17,849 nt of DNA from Selaginella moellendorffii. Taxonomy: Eukaryota; Plantae; Lycopodiophyta. The notes under the pieces are model-generated. The model saw only the letters and a list, made by a program, of their open reading frames with translations, was not told the DNA's origin and made no database searches. A program made the translations under genes and the position numbers. This document shows, piece after piece, positions 2,410 to 17,849 of this stretch. The stretch spans positions 61,893-79,741 of the forward strand of contig NW_003314470.1 in the NCBI RefSeq assembly GCF_000143415.4, given 5' to 3'. Numbering within the stretch: the first letter of the stretch is position 1; every line of letters starts with the position of its first letter.

Positions 2410-2660
2410 TTGGCTCGATCTCGGACTCGATTTCGGATCCGACTTCGGATTCGGTCTCGGACTCGATCTCGGACCTGATCTCGGACCCGACCTCGGACTC
2501 GACCTCGGACTCGGTCTCGGACCCGATTTCGGATCTCGGACTCGGTCTCGAACTCGGTCTCGAACTCGGTCCCCGAGTCAGCCTCGGACTCGATTCCGGA
2601 CTCTATATTGAACTCGGTCTCCGAGTCAGTCTTGGACTCGATCTTCGACTTGGTCCCATC
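2410..2660. repeat. (TCGGAC/TCGGTC)n-derived tandem repeat tract
   Basis: Degenerate hexamer and 12-mer units tcggactcgatc, tcggtctcggac; explains the low-complexity ORFs on both strands. Confidence 0.9.
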
Positions 2661-3977
2661 CGATGAACTCTTTGACATTTTGGTCATGCTTTCAGGGTTC
2701 CTTTAGCCTACGACACCTCAACGAGTTGTTTCCTTACAACTCCACCACCCATAGAAGAAGTTCAATGCCCACATCGAACGTCTCTTTTTTATCCTACGAC
2801 TTGTTGATCATGTCTCCGGGGGCATCCCCCCACTTAGTGGTGTGCCTAAGTTAGCCTCCCCGGCCAAGAGCCCATGACAATGGAATATAGGTGTCCCTAT
2901 ACTCCTCACCTCACCACGCCCTAGTATGGGGTCGGGACTTGAACCCAGCTTTGCTTTACTAGGGGGTTGGGACTCGAACCCAACTGTAAGCGACTAATTT
3001 TTCCATTCTACTTTAGTCACTTAACCACACCTCCGACCACTTGGAGGAGTCTCAATCACAACCTCCATAAGTCCTATTTCAGACTTGGGCTTGCTAGCCC
3101 CGAGAATGGCATCCCCGCCACTCAACTTTTGCACTTGGTCCAAGTGCTCCACGTGTCTGATCCCATGACCGACACTCAAAGGTACCACCGACATAGCAGC
3201 CCGTTACGCTAAGGCCATGCCCAATCACCTTTGCCACACTGGTAGTCCAATACCACTTGCATCACCGTCTTGGCTCTCCAAGACTAGGCAAACCTTCCGT
3301 GAGTGGTCATCTCAGATTCACTCCTTAGCATCCTTAGGATGCCCACCGACAAGGGGAATATCCTTCCCCAATATCCCTCTGTCAGTCCCCACTAAGTCCC
3401 TTTCTGCCCCTGGCCGTGTTTGCCGACACTGCCACTGGATCGAGGCCCACAGGCCCGACCACTAAGTCCCACGGTCCTCTGGGACTTCCTCACCACACGA
3501 CTGTGTCCTTGGTCACTACCCCAGAGGACTGCTCCTCTTCCTTTCCACAGTCTGGGCCTTTGGGACAACATTTCGGAACACCGTGGCCTTACGCGAGCCA
3601 CCTGGGTACTCTCCTCACCTTCTGCCCTTGGGTGCTCTAGCCATGGGCTTAGAGCGGGTTCTGTTGAGCCACACCAGGTATTCAAGTAGGTAGTGCCACC
3701 CACACTTGGACTGGGAGCATCGGCCAGTCGATCTCTCGGGGAACTAGAGCCGGCTCTTGAACACTTCACCAAGCTACCCCGCTTGTCGGTCTGTGTTCAC
3801 TCTAGTCTTGGACTTCCCAGTGGGCAGCTCATCACCCAACACTGGGTCCGGCCTTCCTGGGCCAAACTGGCCTTTCCTGGCCAAACTGGCTCCACTGCAG
3901 TCCTCCCCCTACTATACTTTTGGAGCTCACCAAACCCCCCAGGGTCTGGGAGACGAACGCTTTGGGCTTTCACCCTC

Positions 3978-4525
3978 TCAGACTCGAACTCGGACTCAGA
4001 CTCGGACTCGGACTCGGACTCGGACTCGGACTCGGACTCGGACTCGGGCTCGGTCTCGGCCTCGGCCTCGGTCTCGTTCTCGGTCCCGATCTTGGTCTTG
4101 GTCTCGGTCTCGGTCCCGGTCTCGGTCTCGACTTCGGACTCCATCTCGGACTCCATCTCGGACTCCATCTCGGACTCCATCTCGGGTCCATCTCGGACTC
4201 CATCTCGGGTCCATCTCGGACTCCATTTCGGGTCCATCTCGGACTCCATCTCGGGTCCATCTCGGACTCCATCTCGGACTCCATTTCGGGTCCATCTCGG
4301 GTCCACCTCGGACTCCATCTCAGACTCCATTTCGGGTCCATCTCGGGTCCACCTTAGACTCCATCTTGGGTCCATCTCGGACTCCACTTCGGACTCCAAC
4401 TCAGGTCCATCTCGGGTCCACCTCGGACTCCATCTTGGGTCCATCTCGGACTCCACTTCAGACTCCAACTCAGGTCCATCTCGGACTCCACTTCAGACTC
4501 CAACTCGAGTCCATCTCGGACACTT
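3978..4525. repeat. (TCGGAC)n microsatellite grading into (TCGGACTCCATC/TCGGGTCCATC)n minisatellite
   Basis: Pure hexamers ~3980-4045, then TCGGTC units to ~4130, then 12/11-bp units to ~4520. Confidence 0.95.
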
Positions 4526-4915: not shown

Positions 4916-5746
4916 TTAATTGAACTTTGCATAAGTACATAGAGTTCTGCCTTGCAGAAATTCCTCCACTAGATCTCGCGCATTCGCTAGGTTCTCCTCC
5001 GGTTCCCATGTTGCTTCACAGTGTGGAAATCCTTTCCACTTCACATGGAACTCTCTCACCTCGCGTCCTTGTCACTTGCTCTTGCGCGCATTGAGGATGG
5101 CGTCCACTTCGTATTCCTCTTCCCCTTGGATAACCTCAGGTAAAGGTCTTACTTGGTCCTTGCGAAGTGGATCCTCAAAATACGGCTTGAGTAAGTTGAC
5201 ATGGAACACAGGATGTATCTTCCCCATCTCTCGAAGAAGTCGGAGACAGTAAGCCACTTTACCGATTCGAGCCTCAATCTCGTAAGGCCCCGCGAACCTG
5301 CTTAAGGAACTCAAGATCAATTCATTTACAGGAATACATGCATTTTTACCTTTGGGTCAACTTTCGGCTGATCCCACTTGGTAGCCTGAGGTTCTTGGTG
5401 TTCAGCCACACCTTCTCCCCAGCTTGGAACTCTACGTCCCGGTGCTTCTGGTTCGCGTACTTGGTTTTCCTTTGTTGCGCCCGTTCCAAGGAATCCCTCA
5501 CTAGATTCCAAATGTTGAGTCTTTCCGCCGTGAATGTGTCCACTGCCACTCTTGAATAGTGTCTGATAAACTTTCGGTAGTAGTTGCATAGCCCCAAGAA
5601 CGCACTCAACTCATGTACATTCGATGGTCGCTCCCATTCCTAGATCACTTGGACCTTCTCCGGGTCCACCTTGAGCCCGTCTTGGCCCACCACATGCCCG
5701 AGAAACTTTACCTCTTGTTGAGCAAAGTCACATTTGCTCTCTTAAG
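4916..5746 (-). mobile_element. Ty3/gypsy chromovirus pol remnant (RT C-terminus, internal deletion, integrase C-terminus, chromodomain)
   Basis: Minus strand reads [28 protein letters not shown] and FLGLCNYYRKFI (RT/connection), then jumps to RAQQRKTKYANQKHRDVEFQAGEKVWL..KLTQRFAGPY..IHPVFHVNLLKPY (integrase C-term) and EYEVDAIL..FHVKWKGFPHCEATWEPEENL (chromodomain). In-frame stops present; RNase H and integrase core missing. Confidence 0.93.
5298..5349 (-). other. 52-bp GT-AG intron-like insertion in gypsy integrase
   Basis: Minus strand CAAAG|GTAAAA...AAGCAG|GTTCGCG; removal restores KLTQRFAGPY in frame. Confidence 0.7.
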
Positions 5747-6403
5747 CTCTATTTCGTTAAAGTGGGATTTATTCAGTAAAATGGGACTAGGTACAAATTT
5801 TCAAGTATTTGAAAATGACGTGAAATTATATGTTTTTTGTCCAGGGGCTAGACATATCTGGGGCATGGTGACTAGCGCGGTGACTTTGTGTCCAGACTGA
5901 GTCCATCTGGTTGTATAATAAATCTCATTGTCAAGGTGAACAAGCCGAATCTGAAGCTAAAGAAGAGTGATGGCATGCGCGCACACACTATTTGTTTGTT
6001 CATTGAGCGTGTGGTGAGCTTTCCAAGATGAACGTCATTCCTATTAGCCAGACATATAACTTAATGGTGAGAACATTTAGATATTATTCAATGTTATCCT
6101 TTTCTAACGAATCTAATTGTGAAGGTGTAGCAAGAGGCATTGCTAGTCTGGAGAAGTCATTTAACTCATTTGACCCTTAGTGTATTTTCATGAAACTAAA
6201 TAACATTCATATTATTAAGGAATTTCTCTAGTACCTTTTTTTTACGACATAGAGGCTTGCATTTCTTTCAAAGGTGATTTAGTAAAAGGCCTGAGGGCAC
6301 ATGCCATTCTATTTCTCAGACCGGTATTAAGATATACTAGTGCAAAGGGAAAAAGGTATTTGGTGATCAAGTAAATGGCATGAGGGCACACGCCATTATA
6401 AGC

Positions 6404-6661
6404 CTAAGCGCTAGTGGACACCTCCTTTTTGGTACTCTCAGCGGTACTATCATCCTTCTCCGGGTCAGTTGTTTTGCTTTGGATTGTTGTCTCTGACGTT
6501 ACTGGGGCGTTCTCGATAGTTGTTAATGTTGCCGTTTGTTCAGAAAAATGATCACCTGGAGTATAGTACGGGGAGTTTGGAAGATTTATATATTCTACAT
6601 CTTCACCTATCTCCTTCTCCGTCTCCTTTTCTGCCTCACTTACAGATTTTGTGCTTGCCAT
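6404..6661 (-). CDS. Small acidic/Thr-rich hypothetical protein (85 aa), probably disordered
   Basis: MASTKSVSEAEKETEKEIGEDVEYINLPNSPYYTPGDH...; coding-like composition within AT-rich flanks; bracketed by palindromes. No recognisable homology. Confidence 0.35.
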   Translation of the reverse strand: MASTKSVSEAEKETEKEIGEDVEYINLPNSPYYTPGDHFSEQTATLTTIENAPVTSETTIQSKTTDPEKDDSTAESTKKEVSTSA

Positions 6662-6868
6662 GAGAACGCTCTTCACCCTAAAATATGGAGTTCGTTGTGT
6701 TATAAAAGGAAACCAACACACACGCTACAAGGGAATGATGGTACATAAAGCACGTAAGCCCACAATATGGGTTTATGTGCCATTAATATGGGCCACACGC
6801 CATATTATTAGATTTATGCACGTGTGATTGGTAAATGCATATGTCACATCATCTCAGGCCACATGCCA

Positions 6869-8927
6869 TCACGCCTCCTCTGATTCAGATTCGGATTGTT
6901 CACCTTGAAATAAAATACATTAGAAACTTAGTAAAGGAATATTAATGAATCTCACCTTGAACCCGGGTTATGAATGCTCTTGCTGCATCTCTTGCATGGT
7001 CTGGCAAGGTGATGGTGGCACTCTGCTTCCGCATCCAACCATGCACAACATTATCCACCGATATGCTCATGCTGGGATCCCTTGGATTCAGCACCCATCT
7101 CTTTTCTAGGCAATCCTTCGTATATCCGGAACTTGGCTTGAACCACTCCACAGTTACATTGAAGGAGTTAGTTTCCGCGTCCTCCTCTACATCAGTGATG
7201 CAGTGCCCCACCCATATCATTTGTTTTTTATTACTTGGTCTGACAAGCACGACCATTCCTTTGCAGACCTGTACTGGATTGAATGCTGAATCCGGCTTCT
7301 TGTTCCTCGGCCCACAATAGTGATCCTCAACATCGTTATCTGTCACTGCATTTCCAGAGGACATTGTTCCGCTACTATCTAGTGCTCTGGGTTCTGGCCA
7401 AAAGGACTCTTCCAATTCTTCATATACAACCGGCCCATTTTGGATAGCAGATATAATCTTCTCCCAGTATTCGAGCAAAGGCTTGCACCTCTGAAAATAG
7501 GATTCTCCACCAAACACCAACCCCCTCTTCCAGAAGGCAATATGCTGTCTAATCCCGGCCACTATACTTTCCTGGTCTTTGAGTCCATCCGGGTGCATCG
7601 GCCGTGGGGAACCCTGAGGAATCATAGGTTCCCTAGTTATGGGATCTCTCTTGAAGAGTTCAATGCCGTCCACTGGCAGCCACGCTGTGTCCCATTCTCT
7701 CATCTTGTACCTCATCACTGGAGCACCGTCACACATGCTGAAATGAAACTGAAGAGGCTTGGAGTGGCCAATCAGCATTTCGGATCCGTCCCTGATGTAG
7801 CCTCTTACAAACCCCTTAAAGTCTGGAACCTCTGTCAGAAGTGCAGCTTCAACAGTGCCTTTGATGCAATTTTGGAATTCATCGTAGAGTTGTGGGAGGG
7901 TGAGGACATTGGATCGCCGGAGGGACTCTGCCAGGTGACTGAACATGGCATCGACGTCTTCATGAGTGTGCCCAACCATGAGAAAGCCAAGTGTAACCGT
8001 TTCAAATATGCCTTTGGCAACAAGCATCGCCAAGTACGCGAAGACGTACATGTTTTTGTTCTCACTGCCAGCATTGTCTGTTTGGAGTAGAAGATGGGGT
8101 GGAAGGCCACATCGGCCGCAAGAACTTCCTTGAGATTCTGCTTCGTTTGGATGAGGCTGTGCATTCACCGGGCGACCAGCCTCGTCGGAATGGCATGAGG
8201 CCTCACGTGATAACCCTACAATCTGACGGCCAACATATTCATTGGGATGGCATGGGGCCCCACGCGATACTGCAAGCCTTTGCTCCTCCTCTAGCTGAAC
8301 CCTGTATGGGGTTCGATCGACAAGGGCCTTATGCAAGGGTTGGCTGTTCAGCTCAGTCTGCGCACTTTGCAGAGACCTTAAGTGTTTTGCTAGGGACGCA
8401 ATCATCATGTTTGCACCCCCGCCACCCCATAGAGGTACAAAGAAGTTCCCATAGTTCTGGGCACCATGCCCATGAGCGATTATGCCAAACAGAGACACAG
8501 GCAGCTGCATGGATGAAGAGATTGCCTTGGGGGCAGGATTGAGTCGAGGTAAGCACGTCTTTTTCTGGTCCATTTTGTCGTGGATGATGCAGAGGTAAGA
8601 GTCAGGTCTCTCCATGGAGAGAATCTTGTTATGATAATATGCAGTCCTGCAGCTTCTCTGCTCGATGTTGTGGTCGAGCCGCCTTCTAACCAACGTCTCT
8701 CGCTCTTGAGCGCTGCAAGAATTCTTCGACAAAGCCATTTTGATAGCAGTGCACTCGTCACACTTTGAAAAGCTGGAGTACTTTCCTATACTCACATCCC
8801 TGAACCTGTTGCTCCACAATCTACTAAATCTAGATTGGCTCAGCTTCTTGTAGCCATTACTCTGGAGTTCCCGATTCACATCTTCCAATTCAAACCTCCA
8901 TCGCCATTTTCTGCCTTTTCGGTTCAT
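6869..8927 (-). CDS. DDD-type DNA transposase, Sola1/DUF7869-like, with C-terminal beta-rich domain
   Basis: 661-aa ORF (6942-8927) with FSKCDEC, IIHDKMDQKKTCLP (D1), LLLQTDNAGSENKN (D2, ~8076), FLMVGHTHEDVDAMFS (D3, ~7950-7975). Probable last intron 6904-6955 (52 bp GT-AG) and terminal exon GEQSESESEEA* ending 6869. Confidence 0.85.
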
Positions 8928-9303
8928 TGCTCAGATTCCTTTGGCTGCGCTTTAGGAAGGTGTACTTTCTTTTCCCATGAAGAGATGTTCTGTCATCAAT
9001 TGTAGTGGTGTTTGATTGTGAATCCTTCACATTCTCAAACACTAAGTGCCTCAATTTCCACCGCACAATGCTTCCAATAGTCAGACTATTTTCTTCTATG
9101 TCAACAACCTCTAAAATCGCAACTCCAATATCATCCCAGCCCAATTCTTGATTAGCAACCGCATCTCTTGGATCGACAACTGTGGCTAAGCCCTCAGCTA
9201 CCACCTCCCCCTCGGGGTTGTTTAGAAACACCTTTGCCTGAATCCATGTAGCACGGTTCTTAAGATCCACGGAGGGAACATACGTCGCACTTGCGGAGGC
9301 CAT
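8890..9303 (-). CDS. Probable N-terminal part of the transposase gene (frameshifted), with TNP1/EnSpm-accessory-like domain and NLS
   Basis: VFLNNPEGEVVAEG..DP..VANQELGWDDIGVAILEV..GSIVRW pattern resembles the CACTA TNP1-like domain; basic KRKY..KR..KRQK stretch; ATG preceded by a splice acceptor (TTTCAG ending 9305). Overlaps the transposase ORF in another frame. Confidence 0.55.
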   Translation of the reverse strand: MASASATYVPSVDLKNRATWIQAKVFLNNPEGEVVAEGLATVVDPRDAVANQELGWDDIGVAILEVVDIEENSLTIGSIVRWKLRHLVFENVKDSQSNTTTIDDRTSLHGKRKYTFLKRSQRNLSNEPKRQKMAMEV

Positions 9304-9583
9304 TCTGAAAGTGCAGAAAAGAAGTTAAGACCATACAAAAAATGATTGGAGAATGGCCTAAATCATAACATACCAAACAACCTCAATAGCATGAGGCCAC
9401 ATGCCATTATTCAAACATGCTATTGACACCCACGTGAAATTTCGCATTCACAAAATTGGCATGAGGCCTCATGCCATCTTGATAAACACACAGCTACAGG
9501 CAGGTAAAGAAACTATTGGCAATATGCTAGTGATGAACTTGCAAGCCCCAAGATGGCATGAGCCCTCATACCATTAGTGGTAC

Positions 9584-9750
9584 CGTAGCGCCGCTCGCAC
9601 CACCGCAACTGCTCGTAGCGCCGCTCGCACAAACTGCCACTCGCATAAACTGCCGCTCGCAATGGCGCTCGCAATGCCGCAACCGCTCGTAGACGCATAA
9701 ACCACAGCTCACAATGCCGCTTACACAAGCAGCGCTCACTGCGCTCAGCA
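9584..9750. repeat. GC-rich degenerate tandem repeat (gccgctcgca/cgtagcgccgctcgcac units)
   Basis: cgtagcgccgctcgcac at 9584 and 9614, with further ctcgca units; lies upstream of the transposase 5' end. Confidence 0.7.
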
Positions 9751-9813
9751 GAACCAAGAACACGGCGCACAAAAATGATAGACCTAGGAATGAGTTCGAG
9801 AATTCAAAAATAA

Positions 9814-11753
9814 CACACGCTTGAACGTCACATCAAATCCTCTGACAAACCAGATCTTATGATTCCTCTGACAAATTTCAAACTGAGTAGCTTCTAGACT
9901 TTGCTGTCGGATGTTGAACTTTGTCACATCATGTCCTTGCCTCGATCCAGCTGTGCCATGTCAGTGATTCGAACTTTGCCATGCCATGTCAGCGATCCGC
10001 GCCAAGATTATTCGCCGTGTAAAGGAATAATTATGCTGTGTGTGTACGTCCATTTATGGCAATATAAGGCCACACGCCATTCAAAGAATAATGCTAGTCG
10101 AGCATTTTTTGGTGCATTTTTGGGTTCAAAATTGCATGAGCCCACACGCTATAAAGTTTACCTGTACCAAAAATAGAAACAGCTTTATTTACTTGGGAAT
10201 TTAAGTGGTTGAGGCATTTTTAAATTTACAAACACATGCCCTACTTACATTCCTTTGGTTGCTTAAAATTCAAAAATATTATAAACCTTTCTTTTTGCAT
10301 TTTCAATGTTTTCAATTATGGTTTTTGATTTTCGCAGGACCAGCCTAGTAATCTATTTGCATTCTGTCATGTTTATAACTAGCTTTCGTTTGTCCCCTTC
10401 GCTAGCCTGAGATACATCTGCTCGGCATCTGCCTCTTACAGCATTTGCCCAGAAAGGGCATCTTTCTTCACGCAGCATTTGCCACATGTTTAGGGTTTAG
10501 GGTTTAGGGTTTAGGGTTTAGCAATTTAGTAGCTTGATAAACATGCAAATATAGAACTTGATGCAAAATCCTTTGATATGTCACAATGCCCCTAGGACCA
10601 TAAACACATTTCAATAGAGAGGGTCCTTTCATTTCATAACTCCTTACGTAGATCTTGGTGAAACCAGAGTTAGTGAAGTTAGTTTCTTGTGATCCCGCAT
10701 CTGATTGTGATGTTCCTTTGCAGTGTCGATGGAAAGGTCAATGCACACCAAACTGTAAAATCTTGGAGCAAAATAACGGTTGGATCTATGGCAAATGCCC
10801 CTGAAACATTGTAAGGCTCGTGTGGTCTCATGTGGTGTCCGATCGAGATGCTTCTTTGCAGGGTCATCAAGAAAGACATTGTATACCATTCTGTAAAATC
10901 TAGTTGCGATCTAACGGTTGGATCTCTAGAAAAATAAAAAAAAATCTCGCGCATGTCAGAATATTCTAGGAATATACTCCTATGTGCCCCTTAAAATGGC
11001 ATGCGGCCCCACGCCATTCAAAAGATAACGCCAGATGATGCCGAGCATTTTTTGGTGCATTTTTTGGGATCAAAATTGCATGAGCCCACACGCTTGAATG
11101 TCACATCAAATCCTCTGACAAACCAGATCTTATAATTCCTCTGACAAATTTCAAACTGAGTAGCTTCTAGACTTTGCTGTCGGATGTTGAACTTTGTCAC
11201 ATCATGTCCTTGCCTCGATCCAGCTGTGCCATGTCAGTGATTCAAACTTTGCCATGCCATGTCAGCGATCTGCGCCAAGATTATTCGCCGTGTAACTGCT
11301 CGGCATCTGCCTCTTACAGCATTTGCCCAGAAAGGGCATCTTTCTTCATGCAGCATTTGCCACATATTTAGGGAGGGTTTAGGGTTTAGCAATTCAGTAG
11401 CTTGATAAACATGCAAATACAGAACTTGATGCAAAATCCTTTGATATGTCACAATGCCCCTAGGACCATAAACACATTTCAATAGAGAGGGTCCTTTCAT
11501 TTCATAACGTAGATCTTGGTGAAACCAGAGTTAGTGAAGTTAGTTTCTTGTGATCCCGCATCTGATTGTGATGTCCCTTTGCAGTGTCGATGGAAAGGTC
11601 AATGCACACCAAACTGTAAAATCTTGGAGCAAAATAACAGTCGGATCTATGGCAAATGCCCCTGAAACATTGTAAGGCTCGTGTGGTCTCATGTGGTGTC
11701 CAATCGAGATGCTTCTTTGCAGGGTCATCAAGAAGGACATTGTATACCATTCT
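9814..11753. repeat. Rearranged segmental duplication (blocks A, B, C)
   Basis: A: 9814-10022 matches 11087-11295. B: 10418-10892 matches 11296-11753. C: ~10073-10150 matches ~11010-11094. Near-identical by eye. Confidence 0.92.
10489..10521 (+). repeat. Interstitial plant telomeric repeat (TTTAGGG)4+
   Basis: tttagggtttagggtttagggtttagggtttag; shorter version at 11367-11389 in the duplicate block. Confidence 0.9.
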
Positions 11754-11809
11754 TTATTTAGCTGAACATCTGGCATTTTTGGAAATACAAGATGCTTTAG
11801 AATATCCAA
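11234..11809 (-). pseudogene. Possible third cargo gene fragment (unknown), duplicated at 10418-10892
   Basis: Coding-like stretches MDILKHLVFPK..EWYTMSFL..DPTVILLQDF and DLRYEMKGPSLLKCVYGPRGIVTYQRILHQ, separated by an intron-like CTAAC...CAAG segment. No recognisable domain. Confidence 0.3.
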
Positions 11810-11859
11810 TCATGCATGGTATAAATATAGCGAGGGTATTAAATGATATCCCAATCATG

Positions 11860-12225
11860 ATCTTTCTTTTGGATTTCGCGTGCATGCAGTCCGAGGAATG
11901 ATGACGTTGCGGATTTCTTTTGGATTTCACGTCATGCATGCGTGCGGCGATCCAGAAATTAATGGTGGCGCCCAAGTCCGAGGAATGATGACGTTGCGGG
12001 ATTACCAACCGTCGTGACATTTCGCGTGTGTGAGGTTAGGTTTTGCATTTTGCTTCGTACTTGCGCTCGCACACTCGCGCTCGCATCGCGCTCCCACTCG
12101 CGATCACGCTCACATTTGCGCTCATCTACCTTCTTTACAGGTTTCTCGTGTGCATCAGCGTCCACTCGCGCTTGCATCACAGTCGCGCTCGCATCGCGCT
12201 CGTGTGCATCGGCGTCCACTTCAAG
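11860..12225. repeat. Short duplications and CG-rich repeats in the divergent intergenic region
   Basis: gtccgaggaatgatgacgttgcgg x2 (11889, 11976); cgcgctcgcatcgcgctc x2; cgtgtgcatc.gcgtccact x2. Confidence 0.7.
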
Positions 12226-13334
12226 ACACACCCAGTTTGTAACTTCGCCGCCAACTCTGCCACCCACTCCGCCACCCACACGCAGCCCACTTGGCGTCCC
12301 GGGAGATTTCAGCGCCACTCTCCAACTGTAAGTGGCAGAGTAGCCTTGCTGCTACGATCCGCTGCACACACAGTGCACATTCGCCAGCGAGTCCGGCCTC
12401 GATTGTCACGCCTCCATTCGGCTTCAAATGGTAAGTCTTTTAGGCCAAGTAGAAAATGGCATGAGGCCACATGCCATTCAGTAGCAACATTGGCATGCAC
12501 CGATTGGGCTCTCGAGTGCAGTCCAGTTACAGATGGCATATAGCCTCATGCCATCTTAGGATGCAGCCTCAAGACATCTGATGCAGTGGTGAATGGCATG
12601 TGGCCTCACGTTATTTCCAGCTGCTAGCTTTTCATCTGTCAGCTCTAATTGTTGTGCATTTCTAAACAGGCGAGGAATTGCGTTCTTCTTCCAGCCACTG
12701 TCAATGTGGATGTAGAGAAGGGGGAGGAGCTCACCAGTTGAACTTTCGGGATGGAAGGCGAGGATCTGAGGCTGTACAACACAGATGGTGGGAGAAAAGA
12801 ATGCATGGGGATCCTCATCCAAGTGACAGACACTCCATGTAGTTCCATGCAAGAATATGGACTGGCACTTGTGGTAGAGACAGCGTCCGCCTTCAAGATC
12901 CACCTTGCACATCCTAGCGGCTTCCCGGAGGGGGGCAGCGGCTATGAGGAATTCCTAGAGGGAACTAGGGAGAGGTTGTCCAGGAGGCCCACAATTTCAA
13001 AGACGCTGCAGGTCTATGAAGATCACATGGAATCCACCTCACCTACGGCGATGTTCAAAAACTATATTCCAACATTGAGCCGTTGAGAGTGACTCCAGTT
13101 TGCGAAGCGAAGGGGAAGGGGGTCGATCTGGAAACTACCCCGAAGCAGAAAAGGGTGGTCAAGCTCAAGCCGACGTCCGACTCTCCTGCTCCAAAAAAGA
13201 AGCTACTGGGTGATGCCATTGCCTCAGGTTCGAACACTACACCCACCAAAAAGAAGAGCTGCAAAGAGCAGAAAGAGCAAGAAGAGGCAGCAAAAATCGT
13301 CGCAGATAATAGTACTTGTTACTATTCCAACAAA

Positions 13335-13720
13335 GTATATACAATCGATGTGAGCCACATTGACATCCAAAGCAAATACAACCACAGGCTAGTATCTGAT
13401 GAGTGGGTGGAGAAACTGAAGCAGAAGATGCTGGCAAGTCCAGTAACACCCGACATCGCAGACGTGATCCCCTACTACCGAACAATGAAGGGCGAGACGA
13501 GGTTTCCAGACTTGATCAATAGGAAGGTGTTGGACGATCAGAACATCCGGTTCTATGCCGTCTCTGGGCAGCATTCTAGCTTGGTGATGCAAGAGATAGT
13601 TGTGGATATTATGGTGGGCGAGGAGGTGAAGAAAGTCTTCAAGACAAGAGTTGTCCGCCTGATAAAAGGCAACTCGCCCCTCCGATCTATCATATACATC
13701 TCCCACGCACAGAATGTCAA
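13335..13720 (+). other. ParB/Sulfiredoxin-like (GxH[R/S]) domain
   Basis: IDVSHI..YNHRLVSDEWVEKLKQKM..IADVIP..FYAVSGQHS..RVVRLI..IYISHAQN follows the ParB-N/DGQHR motif order (SGQH at 13563-13574). Confidence 0.6.
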
Positions 13721-14499
13721 GCAAGAAACGTGGTACAAATCAGGTCTGCACGAGACATTGGGACGAACACGGAAGCTCTGGGTTCAACTGAAGAAGCCAC
13801 AAAAACCAGGACAAGGACGTGCACTAGCAACTAGCGCCTGGTAGGTAAGCCTCGTTGCATGTGGCATAGCATGTGGCCTCACGCCATTTCCATTGTAGGA
13901 ATTCTCGAGTCTTCTCTCGAAAACACTGGGGGTCAATGACACACTCAGCATCTATAACATTCTACTTGCGACAAAAGTTGTTTTTGACAAATGGGTAGAT
14001 GTGCTGAGGAGGTACCATGACGGGGAGTTGCTAAACTCAATGGGTGTGGAGGACGGCCGGAAGCCCAATGATTTGAAGCTCAACGCCTTGCATTTCTCGC
14101 GGTCTCTAGACGACATCGACCTTCTGACAGTGGCTAATGCTCTTCTACGTGGTGAGGTAGTCTTCAACAAGACCAAAATGACTCCCGGCCATATTGTGAC
14201 ATACGAGGACTTGTGCACGACTCTGAGAGCTCGTGCGCTATTGAAGGATTGGATCTTCGAGCAAGTGGGCGTGGAGAGGGTGAGCATCGACACCACGCAA
14301 GAGATGATGGAAGAGCTGGAGTTGTCAAATGAAGACATCGACGAGTACGTGAAGGGGGCCCCCAAGTTCATCGATCTGCTGCGGGATGCCACGAAAAGTA
14401 AAGCTGAGAAGTTGGATCAGTATCCAAATTTCATTAAGAGGGATGTCGACCGCCGGCTTCAGAAACAGCTCGACCCCGCAGCAGAGGCCTATCGAGAAC

Positions 14500-15200
14500 C
14501 TTATCGGGTATACGTGAATTCGGATGAGGATCAAAGGTGGAGGAGCATCGTTTCCCACGGAGATGAGCAGGTCAAGAACATCTTTTGTGTGATGGACTTC
14601 ACAAACGAGGAGATCACTCATGCAAATGAAGTCAACTCCATTATTGACTTAATGGTGGGACTTGTGGAGGTGGAATCTTCAGTCCACTATATGATCTATG
14701 ACTCCGAATTCTATCACAAGTTCTGGAAGGCCTTGAACGAGGTGAAGGCTCGGTTGAAAGGCAAGGAGATGCGGGAGATCCATGGGATAATGGCTAAGAA
14801 GAAGATACTGACGAATGTCCGCATCTTCACACTCGCCCTTGTTATTGGTCCTGCAGCAGAGTGGGACTGGAGTGACTTCCCAGCTTCGTTTGACAAGGCC
14901 GATCGAATTGATCTAAGGGAGGTCAATTTACCTGTGCCTGAGGAACTGAAGACGGCTATGGAGCTTTCGAATCCAGAGAAAGCTCCAGGTGCAGCATGGG
15001 AAATGCTCAGCTGGGTCTTCAACGCAATAGCAGGTGGGTCACCTGCTTCCGACTCCAAGGGCAAATGCGTTGTCGAGTACAACTGCGGCGGACTATTCTT
15101 TCGAGCCGCACTACTCAAGGGTGTCCCGTGTGTTGCGGTGACAAACTCCATTGAAGAGGTGACTTCAATGGAGCATATAATTACAGTTGCCAAAGAAAAA
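14500..15200 (+). other. Degenerate beta-class N6A/N4C DNA methyltransferase-like fold
   Basis: NPEK...CVVEYNCGGLFFRAALLKGVPCVAV resembles P.qKP...VlDpF.GsGtt..Aa...gr..ig (motif I at the C-terminus); CVMDFT occupies the DPPY position. Confidence 0.4.
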
Positions 15201-17190
15201 CAGTATCTTCTCTGCGAACCTGGTGAGTACGCACTTTAAGTTTAAATGTTATCTCACAAGCTCTGTATGCAGGAGCGTGGCCACCCCCAGATGCTGAAAC
15301 GGCGTTAACAGCTACTGTTGAAGATACCCATGTTGGGCCGAGCTCACAACCTGCACAAGGTAAGGTCACGTGAGGCCTCACGCCATTTTGATTATAGATC
15401 GTTGTGAATATTCAGACACGAGGACTGAAAAGCGCACTGGTGGCGCGTCGAAGAAGGACAAACAGACAAGCAATAGGAAAAAAGGAGGTACAAATTATAT
15501 TTGCAATGGCGTGTGGTCTCATGCCATTCCTTGCAGGAGACACTTCTTCAAAGGCAAAACAGGCAAGCACCAGTCAAGCTCAAACTGACAGTGGTCATAA
15601 AAAGCGAAAGCACGTTGGACAGTCGTCGGGATCAGAGGCGTTTGATTCGAAAAGGAAGAAGGGCAACGAAAAGATGATAGGTAATGCCTCGCGGTTATGG
15701 CGTGTGTGCTCATGCCATTCATTGCAGATCAAGGGCTGAGTGAAAGGAGCCAGTCACCACCTCCTGACTCAGATTCCTATGGCGGACTCCCCTTCCCCAA
15801 TCTCAATGGAGAGGTACAATGGATGAGGGATGCTTTTCAAGTCAGGGCCACGTTTTTCTCATCTCGTCGTCTTCGAAGGGTGCAAGAACGTGCAGAAACC
15901 ATGTTAAGACAGTCGGGTGAGGATACGGTCCTAGGTCAAGCACTGAAATAGGCTATGGATGTCTTGTATTTTGAGATGGAGACTCGGCCAGATGATTTTC
16001 CCAAGATGGTCCTGGAAAAACAAGCCATCCAGCCTAAGCAGCCTATGGAAGAAATGCAGGAGGGGGATGAGGAGCCAGAGAAAGATAATGAGCAGGAAGA
16101 GCAGAAGGACGAAGAGGAGGACAAAGAAGAGGAGGACGAAGAAGAGGAGGATGAAGAGGACTTGGATGGTCCTCACAATGGTGACGATCACAATAACGAC
16201 GATGACGATGATGACGACGATGGCCAGCCTGAGGTGGCCAAAGAGCAGCAGAGGAAGGTCATACAAGACAAACCATCAGGTAAATAATAGTACATCCATT
16301 CCTAACCTTTTACCATTTCTAACATTGTCCATGTAGGTCGCAGAGCAAATGGTAAGTAGAGATTATTCAGTTGAATTAAGATACAAACTCTAGTCTTTAG
16401 TGTCGAGGAAGGATAGTGCCAAGCAAGGGTCGAAACGTATGTCCAATCCTTCAGAATCAGCAGTGCGCCCAAGTGATATTGGTCCTAGTTCCTCAATAGC
16501 AGTTGATGGTAAATACAGTATAGTCGATTCAATGTGCTAATGAGTTTGTTTTTAGTAGCCAGTAGGGAGGATACCATCTCAATCGAAGGGAGATATTTGG
16601 ACATGCATATGGATCCGCCAGTGGACTCTACTTGCCTGCAAGAGTCATCAGAGCTGGTGGAGGCTACTATCCATATCAACGCCAAGCAAGCTGACCACGC
16701 TCCACTTGATGCTGCCCATACCACTGAGTCAATCTTGTCCACGTATCCAACTGACGGTGACCAGGCGCCATTGGACCCGCATGAGGCCGCCCCAGCCGCC
16801 GAGCCGGTCATATCCTCATTTCCAACAGACTCAACGTGTGCCCAATCGTCTGACTACGCGCCGTTGGAACCTCCCTACACCGCCCCTGCTGCCTGTTCGG
16901 TCATGTCCACTTTGCCAACGGAGGCACCAGCTGAAATGGCGTGTGATCACACGCCATCGGAACCACCCCATGCCACTGTTGAGCCAGTTGTACCAGAGTC
17001 TACAGCTGAAATGGCATGTGCCCACACGCCATCGGATGCGATTGACCCCACATTGCAGAGGAGAGTATTTCCGCCCTTCACGTTTCCTCGACCAAAACCC
17101 TCTGAACGACCATTGGGAGCACCATTCGCTAATATTGTAGATGGTAAAATTGACTTGTACCATTTTTTATGCTGACGCATTTCATTTCAG

Positions 17191-17849
17191 AGTCACGGCG
17201 AAGGTACTGTATCGTTTTTGATCTGAACGGTGTCCTTTTCTCCCATGAGCGTGGCTCGTCCTCGAATGTCATTGCACCCTCCAAAGCCTGCAGTCGCAAG
17301 TTGGTCAAAAGAGACAGATTCACATTAATCACACGGGAGAAACTGTGGGATCTAATAATGACCATGCGACACTTAAAACAGAGGGCCGGGTTCAATTTGC
17401 AATTGGGAGTTTGGACATCCATGATGCGCCACAATGCATTAACGTTGCTACAGATGATGCACGATTAGACGCGAGTAATATTACCATTTGACTTTCTCCT
17501 AACGCAGGAGGATTGCTTGACTATGGTCCATGTGAGGGGTAGCAAGCCCATCTTCGTCAAGCCAGAGGCTGTAGTGATGAACTAGATTGCTAGGTCAAGT
17601 GAAATCCTCATCATCGATGACTCGCCGATTAAAACTGCAGCGAACACGCACACATATGCAGTGCACCCCATCTCTTGCAGTATGGAAACTAGGGAGAAGA
17701 AACCGTATGTTCTAGGGGACCTTGCAAAACGGCTTGGAGCGATGGTGATAGAGAACCGGCCAGTCCAGGAGGTGGCTGCAGAAATCAACCAAATGGCAGA
17801 TGGAACGGTATATCAGAAGCCATTTGATTGGACAGACACCAGTCATCAT
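17191..17849 (+). other. FCP1/NIF (HAD superfamily) phosphatase-like domain, two in-frame stops
   Basis: IVFDLNGVL, LGVWTS, FLLTQEDC, KPIFVK, ILIIDDSPIK..N motifs read through TAG 17466 and TAG 17583. Confidence 0.85.

What the first reader, a model, noticed from the sequence alone, without database searches (positions are those of the whole stretch)
5970..17032. Dispersed 22-bp palindrome ATGGCRTGWG-NN-CWCAYGCCAT (~23 copies)
Two 10-bp inverted half-sites surround a freely varying 2-bp centre (GC, GG, CC, GT, TG, AT), with unrelated flanks. Arms vary independently at the R/W/Y positions, which fits a dimeric protein binding site better than an RNA hairpin or MITE. Copies run through the whole element rather than only subterminally and cluster at 6286-6869, 9386-9574, 12456-12614 and 15365-15718. 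The A/G and C/T variants may be CpG decay of ATGGCGTG...CACGCCAT.
Basis: seen in the sequence. Interest (0 to 1): 0.85.

Follow-up and report, generated by a model that had tools for sequence, protein, structure and literature searches.

The report
Palindrome tags inside a plant transposon
A high-copy jumping gene, likely from a seed-free land plant, carries about twenty copies of one 22-letter mirror-image DNA word, mostly in its predicted introns and other non-coding parts; they are likely docking sites for a second protein that the element encodes, a design reported in seaweeds and here likely extended to land plants.

Summary
In detail: 19 full sites (up to 3 mismatches; 0.02 expected) plus 4 partial ones, always with a 2-bp centre, none in the 5.5 kb outside the element. 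They lie in a damaged copy of a high-copy two-gene DNA transposon (left end about 5744, right end beyond the window) inserted in a Ty3/gypsy element. It has a DUF7869 (Sola1-like) transposase on the minus strand and a divergent accessory gene with 10 predicted introns. Ten of 19 sites are intronic (1.6 expected); the four coding ones sit in poorly conserved linkers. The arms do not covary and have no target duplications, so this is neither an RNA hairpin nor a MITE. CpG decay explains only a few variants. The accessory protein has a probably degenerate N4/N6 methyltransferase fold (seen through a Selaginella homologue), an FCP1-like phosphatase domain and, by eye only, a ParB-like N-terminus. 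Best reading: family-specific docking sites for this protein, used for self-regulation or anti-silencing. Binding is untested. The gene layout is published for Ectocarpus Sola1-1_Ec32; the land-plant host, intronic palindromes and phosphatase fusion were not found in my searches.

The parts
5744..17849 (.). Two-gene DNA transposon, damaged copy of a high-copy family; probable left end at 5744-5745, right end beyond the window
   Evidence: an X4 contig matches from 5744 and has a different 359-letter flank; Ty3 contigs leave the window at 5747; 32,480 and 21,258 X1 contigs laid. The end rests on one contig plus the Ty3 break; TIR and TSD could not be tested.
6869..9304 (-). Transposase gene (DUF7869, DDE type; Sola1-like), predicted intron 6904-6955; this copy lacks about 460 bp at 8888/8889 and 244 bp at 9295/9297
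   Evidence: PF25273 E=2e-42; 125 homologues; invariant D117, D120, D284, GHTH-D326; deletions
9307..9583 (-). Predicted 5'-leader intron of the transposase gene with sites 9386, 9456, 9553; donor uncertain, because family contigs have 93 letters in place of 9576-9589
   Evidence: Sequence; joints. Not frame-constrained, so the weakest intron call.
12428..17849 (+). Accessory gene (ORF2): ATG 12428, 10 predicted GT-AG introns (12431-12669, 13845-13898, 15223-15272, 15360-15415, 15488-15536, 15681-15727, 16280-16336, 16352-16400, 16509-16555, 17144-17190); over 1,500 codons, open at the window end; broken in this copy by a frameshift near 13035 and five in-frame stops
   Evidence: 4 stops, all TAG, in the spliced frame from 13023, against 75 and 85 in the other phases, and one TGA at 12739; homologue P0174 is collinear across intron 2
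13308..13844 (+). Putative ParB/sulfiredoxin-like segment of ORF2 (motif FYAVSGQHS); by eye only
   Evidence: Sequence; motif resemblance recalled. Not confirmed.
13899..15222 (+). ORF2 exon 3: helical region, then an N4/N6 DNA-methyltransferase-like fold with degenerate motifs (MDFT where DPPY/SPPY is usual; YNCGG where FxGxG is usual)
   Evidence: homologues, 22-25% identity; Atlas model of homologue P0174; motif positions are my reading, canonical motifs recalled
17191..17849 (+). ORF2 last exon seen: NIF/FCP1-like HAD phosphatase domain, motif DLNGV (second Asp of DxDxT absent)
   Evidence: PF03031 24.3 bits, cut-off 21.8, E=2.9e-5, with two TAG read through
5970..5991 (.). Palindrome site (3 mismatches), inside an inverted duplicate of the transposase last exon
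   Evidence: (pair I1)
6286..6396 (.). Sites 6286-6307 and 6375-6396, downstream of the transposase
6782..6869 (.). Partial sites 6782-6803 and 6848-6869; other copies have a full site at the second place, and a deletion in this copy (size not fixed, possibly over 465 bp) removed one arm
   Evidence: loose end at 6856; X11 record 10
8190..8268 (.). Coding sites 8190-8211 and 8247-8268, 57 nt (19 codons) apart, in the length-variable linker before the QxDN motif of the transposase
   Evidence: (columns about 735-815)
9386..9574 (.). Sites 9386, 9456, 9553 in the predicted transposase leader intron
10059..11096 (.). Sites 10131, 10996 and partial sites 10059, 11075 in the duplicated intergenic block between the two genes
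12456..12614 (.). Sites 12456, 12533, 12593 in ORF2 intron 1
13866..13887 (.). Site in ORF2 intron 2 (54 nt)
15365..15718 (.). Sites 15365, 15506, 15697 in ORF2 introns 4, 5, 6 (56, 49, 47 nt)
16936..17032 (.). Coding sites 16936 and 17011, 75 nt (25 codons) apart, in a duplicated P/A/T/E-rich linker of ORF2
   Evidence: (family D16)
4938..5743 (-). Ty3/gypsy pol remnants flanking the element's left end; no palindrome sites
   Evidence: PF24626 SH3_Tf2-1 E=2e-14

Best explanation
The 22-bp palindrome is a repeated word of a two-gene DNA transposon, enriched in its predicted introns and non-coding DNA, and is likely the docking site for a dimer of the element's own accessory protein. Shown: fixed two-fold symmetry, no pairing signal, confinement to the element within the window, enrichment in introns, multiplication by local duplication, and presence in other family copies. 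Inferred: ORF2 (putative ParB-like domain, helical region, degenerate N4/N6 methyltransferase fold, FCP1-like domain) binds each site as a dimer, one subunit per arm. About twenty sites around both gene starts and through both gene bodies would let it mark the element as self and keep it transcribable or tune its transcription in a host that methylates CG and CHG, as VANC does for VANDAL. The methyltransferase fold probably no longer methylates. The FCP1-like domain is the candidate effector, possibly on RNA polymerase II, but may also be inactive.
For: 19 sites against 0.02 expected; spacer only 2 bp; no arm covariation and no TSDs. 10 of 19 sites in introns that make up 8.5% of the element (P=8e-7) and 4 of 19 in coding DNA against 11.2 expected; using only frame-defined ORF2 introns, 7 of 9 (P=2e-5), or 4 of 6 without intron 1 (P=8e-4). 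Coding sites fall in the least conserved linkers, at in-frame spacings. C5 is kept (36 of 38) while position 6 varies. 9 of 11 checkable sites are unchanged in family contigs and the other 2 are closer to consensus there. ORF2 homologue P0174: 8 of 10 Atlas structure rows come from clusters carrying N6_N4_Mtase, 3 of 10 from clusters carrying ParB_N. Published precedent: ParB+N4/N6-methyltransferase gene opposite the transposase in Sola1-1_Ec32 (PMC12477816); inverted-repeat arrays beside the ParB-like PAG3 (10.1101/2025.02.11.637652); VANC21 motifs in introns (PMC5735166). The copy's transitions fall in CG (26), CHG (19) and CHH (4) of the 49 listed, so it was probably methylated.
Against: No binding data. 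The ParB-like domain was not confirmed by any tool (model pLDDT 31). The methyltransferase fold rests on a 23%-identical homologue, with TM-scores by query of 0.36-0.41, only 1 of 10 rows meeting the bar for a name, and feature scores under 0.9; no Pfam or PDB profile hit supports it. Introns are predictions. Sites are not independent, since several arose by duplication, so the P values are optimistic. No clear protection from decay near sites: median distance 298 against 167 expected (P=0.03) but 8 against 11 within 150 bp (P=0.15), confounded by the long transposase exon, and 4 decays lie inside intron-1 sites. No related element with its DNA was available, so co-variation of motif and protein is untested.
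Confidence: 0.6

Rival explanations
1. The sites are bound by the transposase (its N-terminal SH3/Tudor-like and Cys-rich regions) for synapsis or autoregulation, like the subterminal motifs of Spm or Ac.
For: Four full or partial sites and one duplicate lie within about 1.1 kb of the left end; a full-length homologue shows a weak Transposase_23 match, E=0.023; a 2026 preprint abstract reports sequence-specific activation by a transposase (10.64898/2026.08.24.746577, search listing only).
Against: Sites are not concentrated at the end; the densest clusters are in the first introns of both genes and deep in ORF2, 6-11 kb from the left end.
Confidence: 0.2
2. The sites recruit a host transcription or chromatin factor (the arms contain an ATGGC core like YY1 sites; some centres resemble TCP sites), acting as intronic enhancers.
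For: Clusters lie in the first introns and the shared promoter region, which also holds telomere-type TTTAGGG runs. YY1 and TCP motifs are recalled, not tested.
Against: A 20-bp two-fold site with a fixed spacer is longer than usual plant factor sites (established knowledge); absent from the flanking 5.5 kb.
Confidence: 0.1
3. The palindrome works as an RNA hairpin or splicing signal, or it created the small introns (introner-like).
For: Five of 10 ORF2 introns hold a site; three end 9-11 nt before the AG, and the right arm contains a CTCAY branch-point-like word (consensus recalled). 4 of the 7 site-bearing segments folded have z of -1.7 or lower.
Against: No covariation; A-A and U-U oppositions in 10 of 19 at positions 9/14; 2 of the 4 site-bearing small introns fold no better than shuffles; 9 of 19 sites are exonic or intergenic; site-free introns have the same 47-57 nt size; no TSD or terminal structure.
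Confidence: 0.06
4. The copies are an independent MITE family or a neutral by-product of local duplications.
For: Several pairs do come from duplication (16936/17011, 8190/8247, 10059-10152/10996-11096, 5970/6848).
Against: No TSDs, flanks at background for 168 of 171 pairs; arms stay conserved while flanks diverge; strong avoidance of conserved coding DNA.
Confidence: 0.04

Closest known systems
Sola1-1_Ec32 of the brown alga Ectocarpus (PMC12477816; abstract, passages and supplement rows seen; figures not seen)
   Same: Giant DDE element with an accessory gene on the strand opposite the transposase, encoding ParB-like plus N4mC/N6mA methyltransferase domains, proposed to bind and modify its own element; its best match is a Physcomitrella Sola1 transposase, and Physcomitrium proteins are among our homologues; both begin with A at the left end.
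   Different: The paper's main text has no occurrence of 'palindrom'. Here the host is probably a land plant, the methyltransferase motifs look degenerate, an FCP1-like domain is fused on, and the palindromes are spread through introns.
Plavaka (EnSpm) elements of the red alga Bostrychia with PAG2/PAG3 (10.1101/2025.02.11.637652; passages seen; supplements not seen)
   Same: ParB-like accessory protein proposed to bind inverted repeats in its own element.
   Different: Other transposase group; repeats form tandem arrays beside PAG3 rather than single dispersed sites; effector is a 2OG oxygenase, with the methylase in a separate gene.
VANDAL21/VANC21 of Arabidopsis (PMC5735166; passages seen)
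   Same: Element-specific motif concentrated in introns, intergenic and terminal DNA, multiplied by local duplication; accessory protein acts against silencing (shown there by ChIP and EMSA).
   Different: Mutator-like element; 9-bp non-palindromic motif in same-orientation tandem arrays; no sign that ORF2 is related to VANC.
Bacterial ParB/parS (recalled; summarised in the Bostrychia passage)
   Same: Dimeric protein, long palindromic sites in several copies.
   Different: No ParA partner; ParB homology unconfirmed; no segregation role is plausible for a chromosomal insert.

Membership tests
Sola1 DNA transposons | DDE transposase homologous to curated Sola1 transposases | tested here: inconclusive
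   DUF7869 with invariant acidic residues and Physcomitrium homologues at 28%; no curated Sola1 sequence or profile was available, and no paper linked DUF7869 to a superfamily (0 papers). The Sola link came from an earlier scan note and the gene layout.
Sola1 DNA transposons | 4-bp AT-rich target duplication (AWWT in PMC3845634; ending in A in Sola1-1_Ec32) | tested here: inconclusive
   Only the left junction is in the window; both junctions seen are AT-rich but not AWWT.
Sola1 DNA transposons | Terminal inverted repeats | not testable with these tools
   Right end outside the window; no genome held; no inverted partner of the first 30 bp within the window.
ParB-methyltransferase accessory genes of algal transposons | Accessory gene on the strand opposite the transposase | tested here: met
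ParB-methyltransferase accessory genes of algal transposons | N-terminal ParB-like domain | tested here: inconclusive
   GQH motif by eye; blank; model unusable. These searches are too weak to exclude it.
ParB-methyltransferase accessory genes of algal transposons | N4mC/N6mA methyltransferase fold | tested here: inconclusive
   Supported through homologue P0174 and collinear alignment, at low scores; direct profile searches blank.
ParB-methyltransferase accessory genes of algal transposons | Intact catalytic (D/N/S)PP(Y/F) and FxGxG motifs | tested here: not met
   Aligned positions read MDFT and YNCGG; homologues ADLR/CDSA/LDAT and YGCGG/INTGG; canonical motifs recalled.
VANC/VANDAL anti-silencing system | Motif concentrated in introns and other non-coding DNA of the element | tested here: met
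VANC/VANDAL anti-silencing system | Mutator transposase and VANC-family protein | tested here: not met
   Transposase is DUF7869, no MULE hit; no VANC-type family hit on the ORF2 segments scanned
VANC/VANDAL anti-silencing system | Protein binds the motif and causes local hypomethylation | not testable with these tools
   Decay-distance proxy equivocal
MITE or introner | Target duplications and shared body between copies | tested here: not met
Structured RNA family | Compensatory pairing or Rfam match | tested here: not met
FCP1/SCP (NIF) phosphatases | PF03031 domain with DxDxT/V motif | tested here: inconclusive
   Domain above cut-off, but motif is DLNGV

The most novel reading that the evidence does not exclude
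A land-plant transposon lineage uses a parS/ParB-style clamp system: the accessory protein loads at palindromes tucked into introns, spreads over the whole element, and carries an FCP1-like phosphatase that resets RNA polymerase II or chromatin there, an anti-silencing route unrelated to VANC, with each family owning a private palindrome.
Probability: 0.2. Interest if true: 0.8.

Novelty: new variant of a known kind. Interest (0 to 1): 0.52.

Why it matters
ParB-like accessory genes of eukaryotic transposons have been proposed to bind their own element, but in the papers read no target word was defined or tested. This element offers a sharp 22-bp candidate site, a matrix of tolerated variants and a young, high-copy family, so the idea can be tested directly by EMSA or DAP-seq. 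If ORF2 binds and counters silencing, it is a second, independent anti-silencing system in land plants and a possible sequence-specific tool.

Tried and rejected
Genome-wide density: no genome held. Expression and splicing: no RNA holder listed; the one run guessed as RNA (X20) gave contigs across predicted intron 1 with no joint, so it is uninformative. Pattern scans: 10 metagenome stretches, each with one isolated match and no second site within 4 mismatches, taken as chance; 0 in viral contigs; no transposase relative in viral contigs. Motif-derived peptides in 171 stored proteins: none (strict patterns). ParB tests: blank; single-sequence folds had pLDDT 33 and 31 and the fold search was meaningless. 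Of 5 hits, P0172 and P0176 were dropped as repeat-driven chance hits; P0173-P0175 were kept. The cytochrome hit is a repeat artefact. Helical phasing: 12 short spacings show no 10.5-bp preference by eye. Rfam: none. The original Sola paper was not held.
Full report
Observation. The word is there. Six copies match the written consensus exactly and 19 match with up to three mismatches, against 0.02 expected and never more than 1 in 200 shuffles. A half-site matrix adds four partial sites at 6782, 6848, 10059 and 11075, and finds paired half-sites only with a 2-bp spacer (19 against 0 for the 13 other spacers tried; the matrix was trained on these sites). The centre prefers GC (10 of 19) and the base outside each arm prefers A (24 of 38). 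No site lies in the 5,543 non-N bases left of 5744 (P about 8e-4 if uniform).

The element. The sites lie in a two-gene DNA transposon. On the minus strand, 6869-9304 encodes a DUF7869 protein (E=2e-42) with 125 homologues among 7,989 candidates scored, the named ones from mosses, a liverwort and a mussel, and invariant HDKMD, QxDN and GHTHxD motifs (20 sequences). Runs holding only 3-4 million letters of contigs still cover it and X1 lays tens of thousands of variant contigs, so the family is high-copy; the tool gives no copy number. One X4 contig leaves the window at 5744 with another flank, and Ty3 contigs leave it at 5747, which places the probable left end inside a Ty3/gypsy pol remnant. 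The right end is outside the window and no genome is held. This copy differs from family contigs by about 0.7-1.5%; 74 of 100 differences in X1 are A>G or T>C, and of the 49 listed transitions that I classed, 26 are in CG, 19 in CHG and 4 in CHH context. It also has deletions of about 460 and 244 bp in the transposase and a frameshift in ORF2. The host is probably a seed-free land plant (TTTAGGG runs, CG and CHG decay, 47-57 nt introns, Selaginella and moss homologues); this is inference.

The accessory gene. A divergent plus-strand gene starts at 12428. With ten GT-AG introns the frame from 13023 to the window end has 4 stops, all TAG, against 75 and 85 in the other phases; the one at 15949 is C in family contigs. 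The search of 1.84 billion representatives with exon 3 gave 5 hits; 2 were repeat-driven and dropped, 3 are collinear homologues at 22-25%. P0174, named by its sources as a Selaginella moellendorffii protein, also matches the end of exon 2, which supports intron 2 independently of the site in it. In the Atlas, 8 of 10 structure neighbours of P0174 come from clusters carrying N6_N4_Mtase and 3 of 10 from clusters carrying ParB_N, at TM 0.36-0.41 by query, one row meeting the bar for a name. The catalytic and SAM-binding motifs look degenerate. The last exon scores as NIF/FCP1-like above the Pfam cut-off when two TAG codons are read through. A ParB-like segment upstream is my reading of the motif FYAVSGQHS; every tool test was blank or unusable.

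Where the sites sit. Ten of 19 are in predicted introns (8.5% of bases, 1.6 expected), 4 in coding DNA (11.2 expected), 5 in other non-coding DNA. One of those introns, the transposase leader intron, is not frame-constrained; on ORF2 introns alone the count is 7 of 9 (12.8% of bases, P=2e-5), or 4 of 6 without intron 1 (P=8e-4). Five of ten ORF2 introns carry a site, and each gene has three in its first intron. The two coding pairs lie in the length-variable linker of the transposase and a duplicated low-complexity linker of ORF2, 57 and 75 nt apart, so in frame. Several sites arose by local duplication, so the P values overstate independence.

DNA site, not RNA or MITE. Variable arm positions pair no more often than after shuffling (7 of 19 against 7.4; 7 of 19 against 8.2), 18 of 19 sites lack any flanking direct repeat, and flank identity equals background. 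Folding is mixed and Rfam is blank. CpG decay is a minor part: CA 22, TG 2 of 38 half-sites. Eleven of the 19 sites could be checked against contigs whose differences are all accounted for: 9 are identical and 2 (12533, 12593) are nearer the consensus in the family. Other copies have a full site at 6848 and signs of further sites near 9575 and 15574 (loose-end rows, not whole contigs). A test for less decay near sites was equivocal.

Mechanism. The best reading (0.6) is that ORF2 dimers dock on the palindromes and so mark the element as self, to keep or tune its transcription under host methylation. Binding, the binder's identity and the effect are all inferred. Rivals: transposase sites (0.2), host factor sites (0.1), RNA or splicing role (0.06), MITE or neutral duplication (0.04).

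Comparison with what is known. Earlier scan notes (unchecked leads) pointed to two papers, which I then read in passages. Sola1-1_Ec32 of Ectocarpus has a ParB plus N4/N6-methyltransferase gene opposite its transposase (PMC12477816). Bostrychia Plavaka elements have inverted-repeat arrays beside a ParB-like gene (10.1101/2025.02.11.637652; supplements closed and may describe the repeats). VANC21 binds a motif in VANDAL21 introns (PMC5735166). Iyer et al. 2011, cited there for similar green-algal proteins, was seen as a reference only; the original Sola paper was not held; Sola1 target preference comes from PMC3845634 (passages). PMC4455052, PMC5751038 and 10.1101/2021.09.26.461848 (passages) added nothing on this. 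Searches found no paper on such an element in land plants, on intronic palindromes in it, or on an FCP1-like fusion; none of the searches named FCP1, and the library lacks most subscription journals. It works like VANDAL/VANC in layout but is not a member; it is probably a member of the Sola1 ParB-methyltransferase kind, with transposase, TSD and ParB tests inconclusive and the catalytic-motif test not met.

Verdict. Real feature; new variant of a known kind; interest 0.52. The design is in print and recurs in this scan, but the defined site, its intronic placement and the phosphatase-like fusion in a plant make the proposed self-binding directly testable.

Noticed in passing
window 5931-5991 and 6848-6908: Inverted duplicate (47 nt, 85%) of the transposase's last exon, stop codon and adjacent half-site near the left end; present in family contigs.
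   Followed up: partly
window 6404-6724, minus strand: A 106-codon open frame with a splice-acceptor-like start near 6678; family contigs either skip 6348-6856 or carry 465 or more extra letters at 6854-6857. Possibly the last exon of a third small gene in one subfamily.
   Followed up: partly
window 9575-9590: Family contigs have 93 letters in place of 14 here, including a 14-bp palindromic spacer that appears to join two sites into a longer inverted repeat.
   Followed up: partly
window 9478-9552: One X4 contig differs at 13 listed places between sites 9456 and 9553 (5 rows not shown), which suggests a subfamily that keeps both sites while the spacer diverges.
   Followed up: partly
window 15574: An X11 contig joins here with an upstream AG-ending stretch that holds another site 9 nt before the AG, which suggests an extra exon-intron unit in other copies.
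   Followed up: no
window 9814-11756: The intergenic region is a block duplication (97-99% identity) with TTTAGGG runs at 10488-10521 and about 11375; telo-box-like (recalled).
   Followed up: no
window 9584-9750 and 12060-12210: Both predicted 5' leaders contain GC-rich CGCTCGCA-type repeats; the intergenic region has the least CpG loss (o/e 0.85 against 0.57 and 0.67).
   Followed up: no
window 12803-12890: One X1 contig replaces 86 bases with telomere-type repeats in both orientations, like a repaired break.
   Followed up: no
window 2414-2644 and 3976-4521: GACTCG-type tandem arrays in the nested retroelement DNA left of the transposon; two 100-N gaps at about 1083 and 2228.
   Followed up: no
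window 13845-13898: Two annotations of the Selaginella homologue differ by two residues at the place of intron 2 (P0174 against P0180), a hint that the intron position is shared.
   Followed up: no
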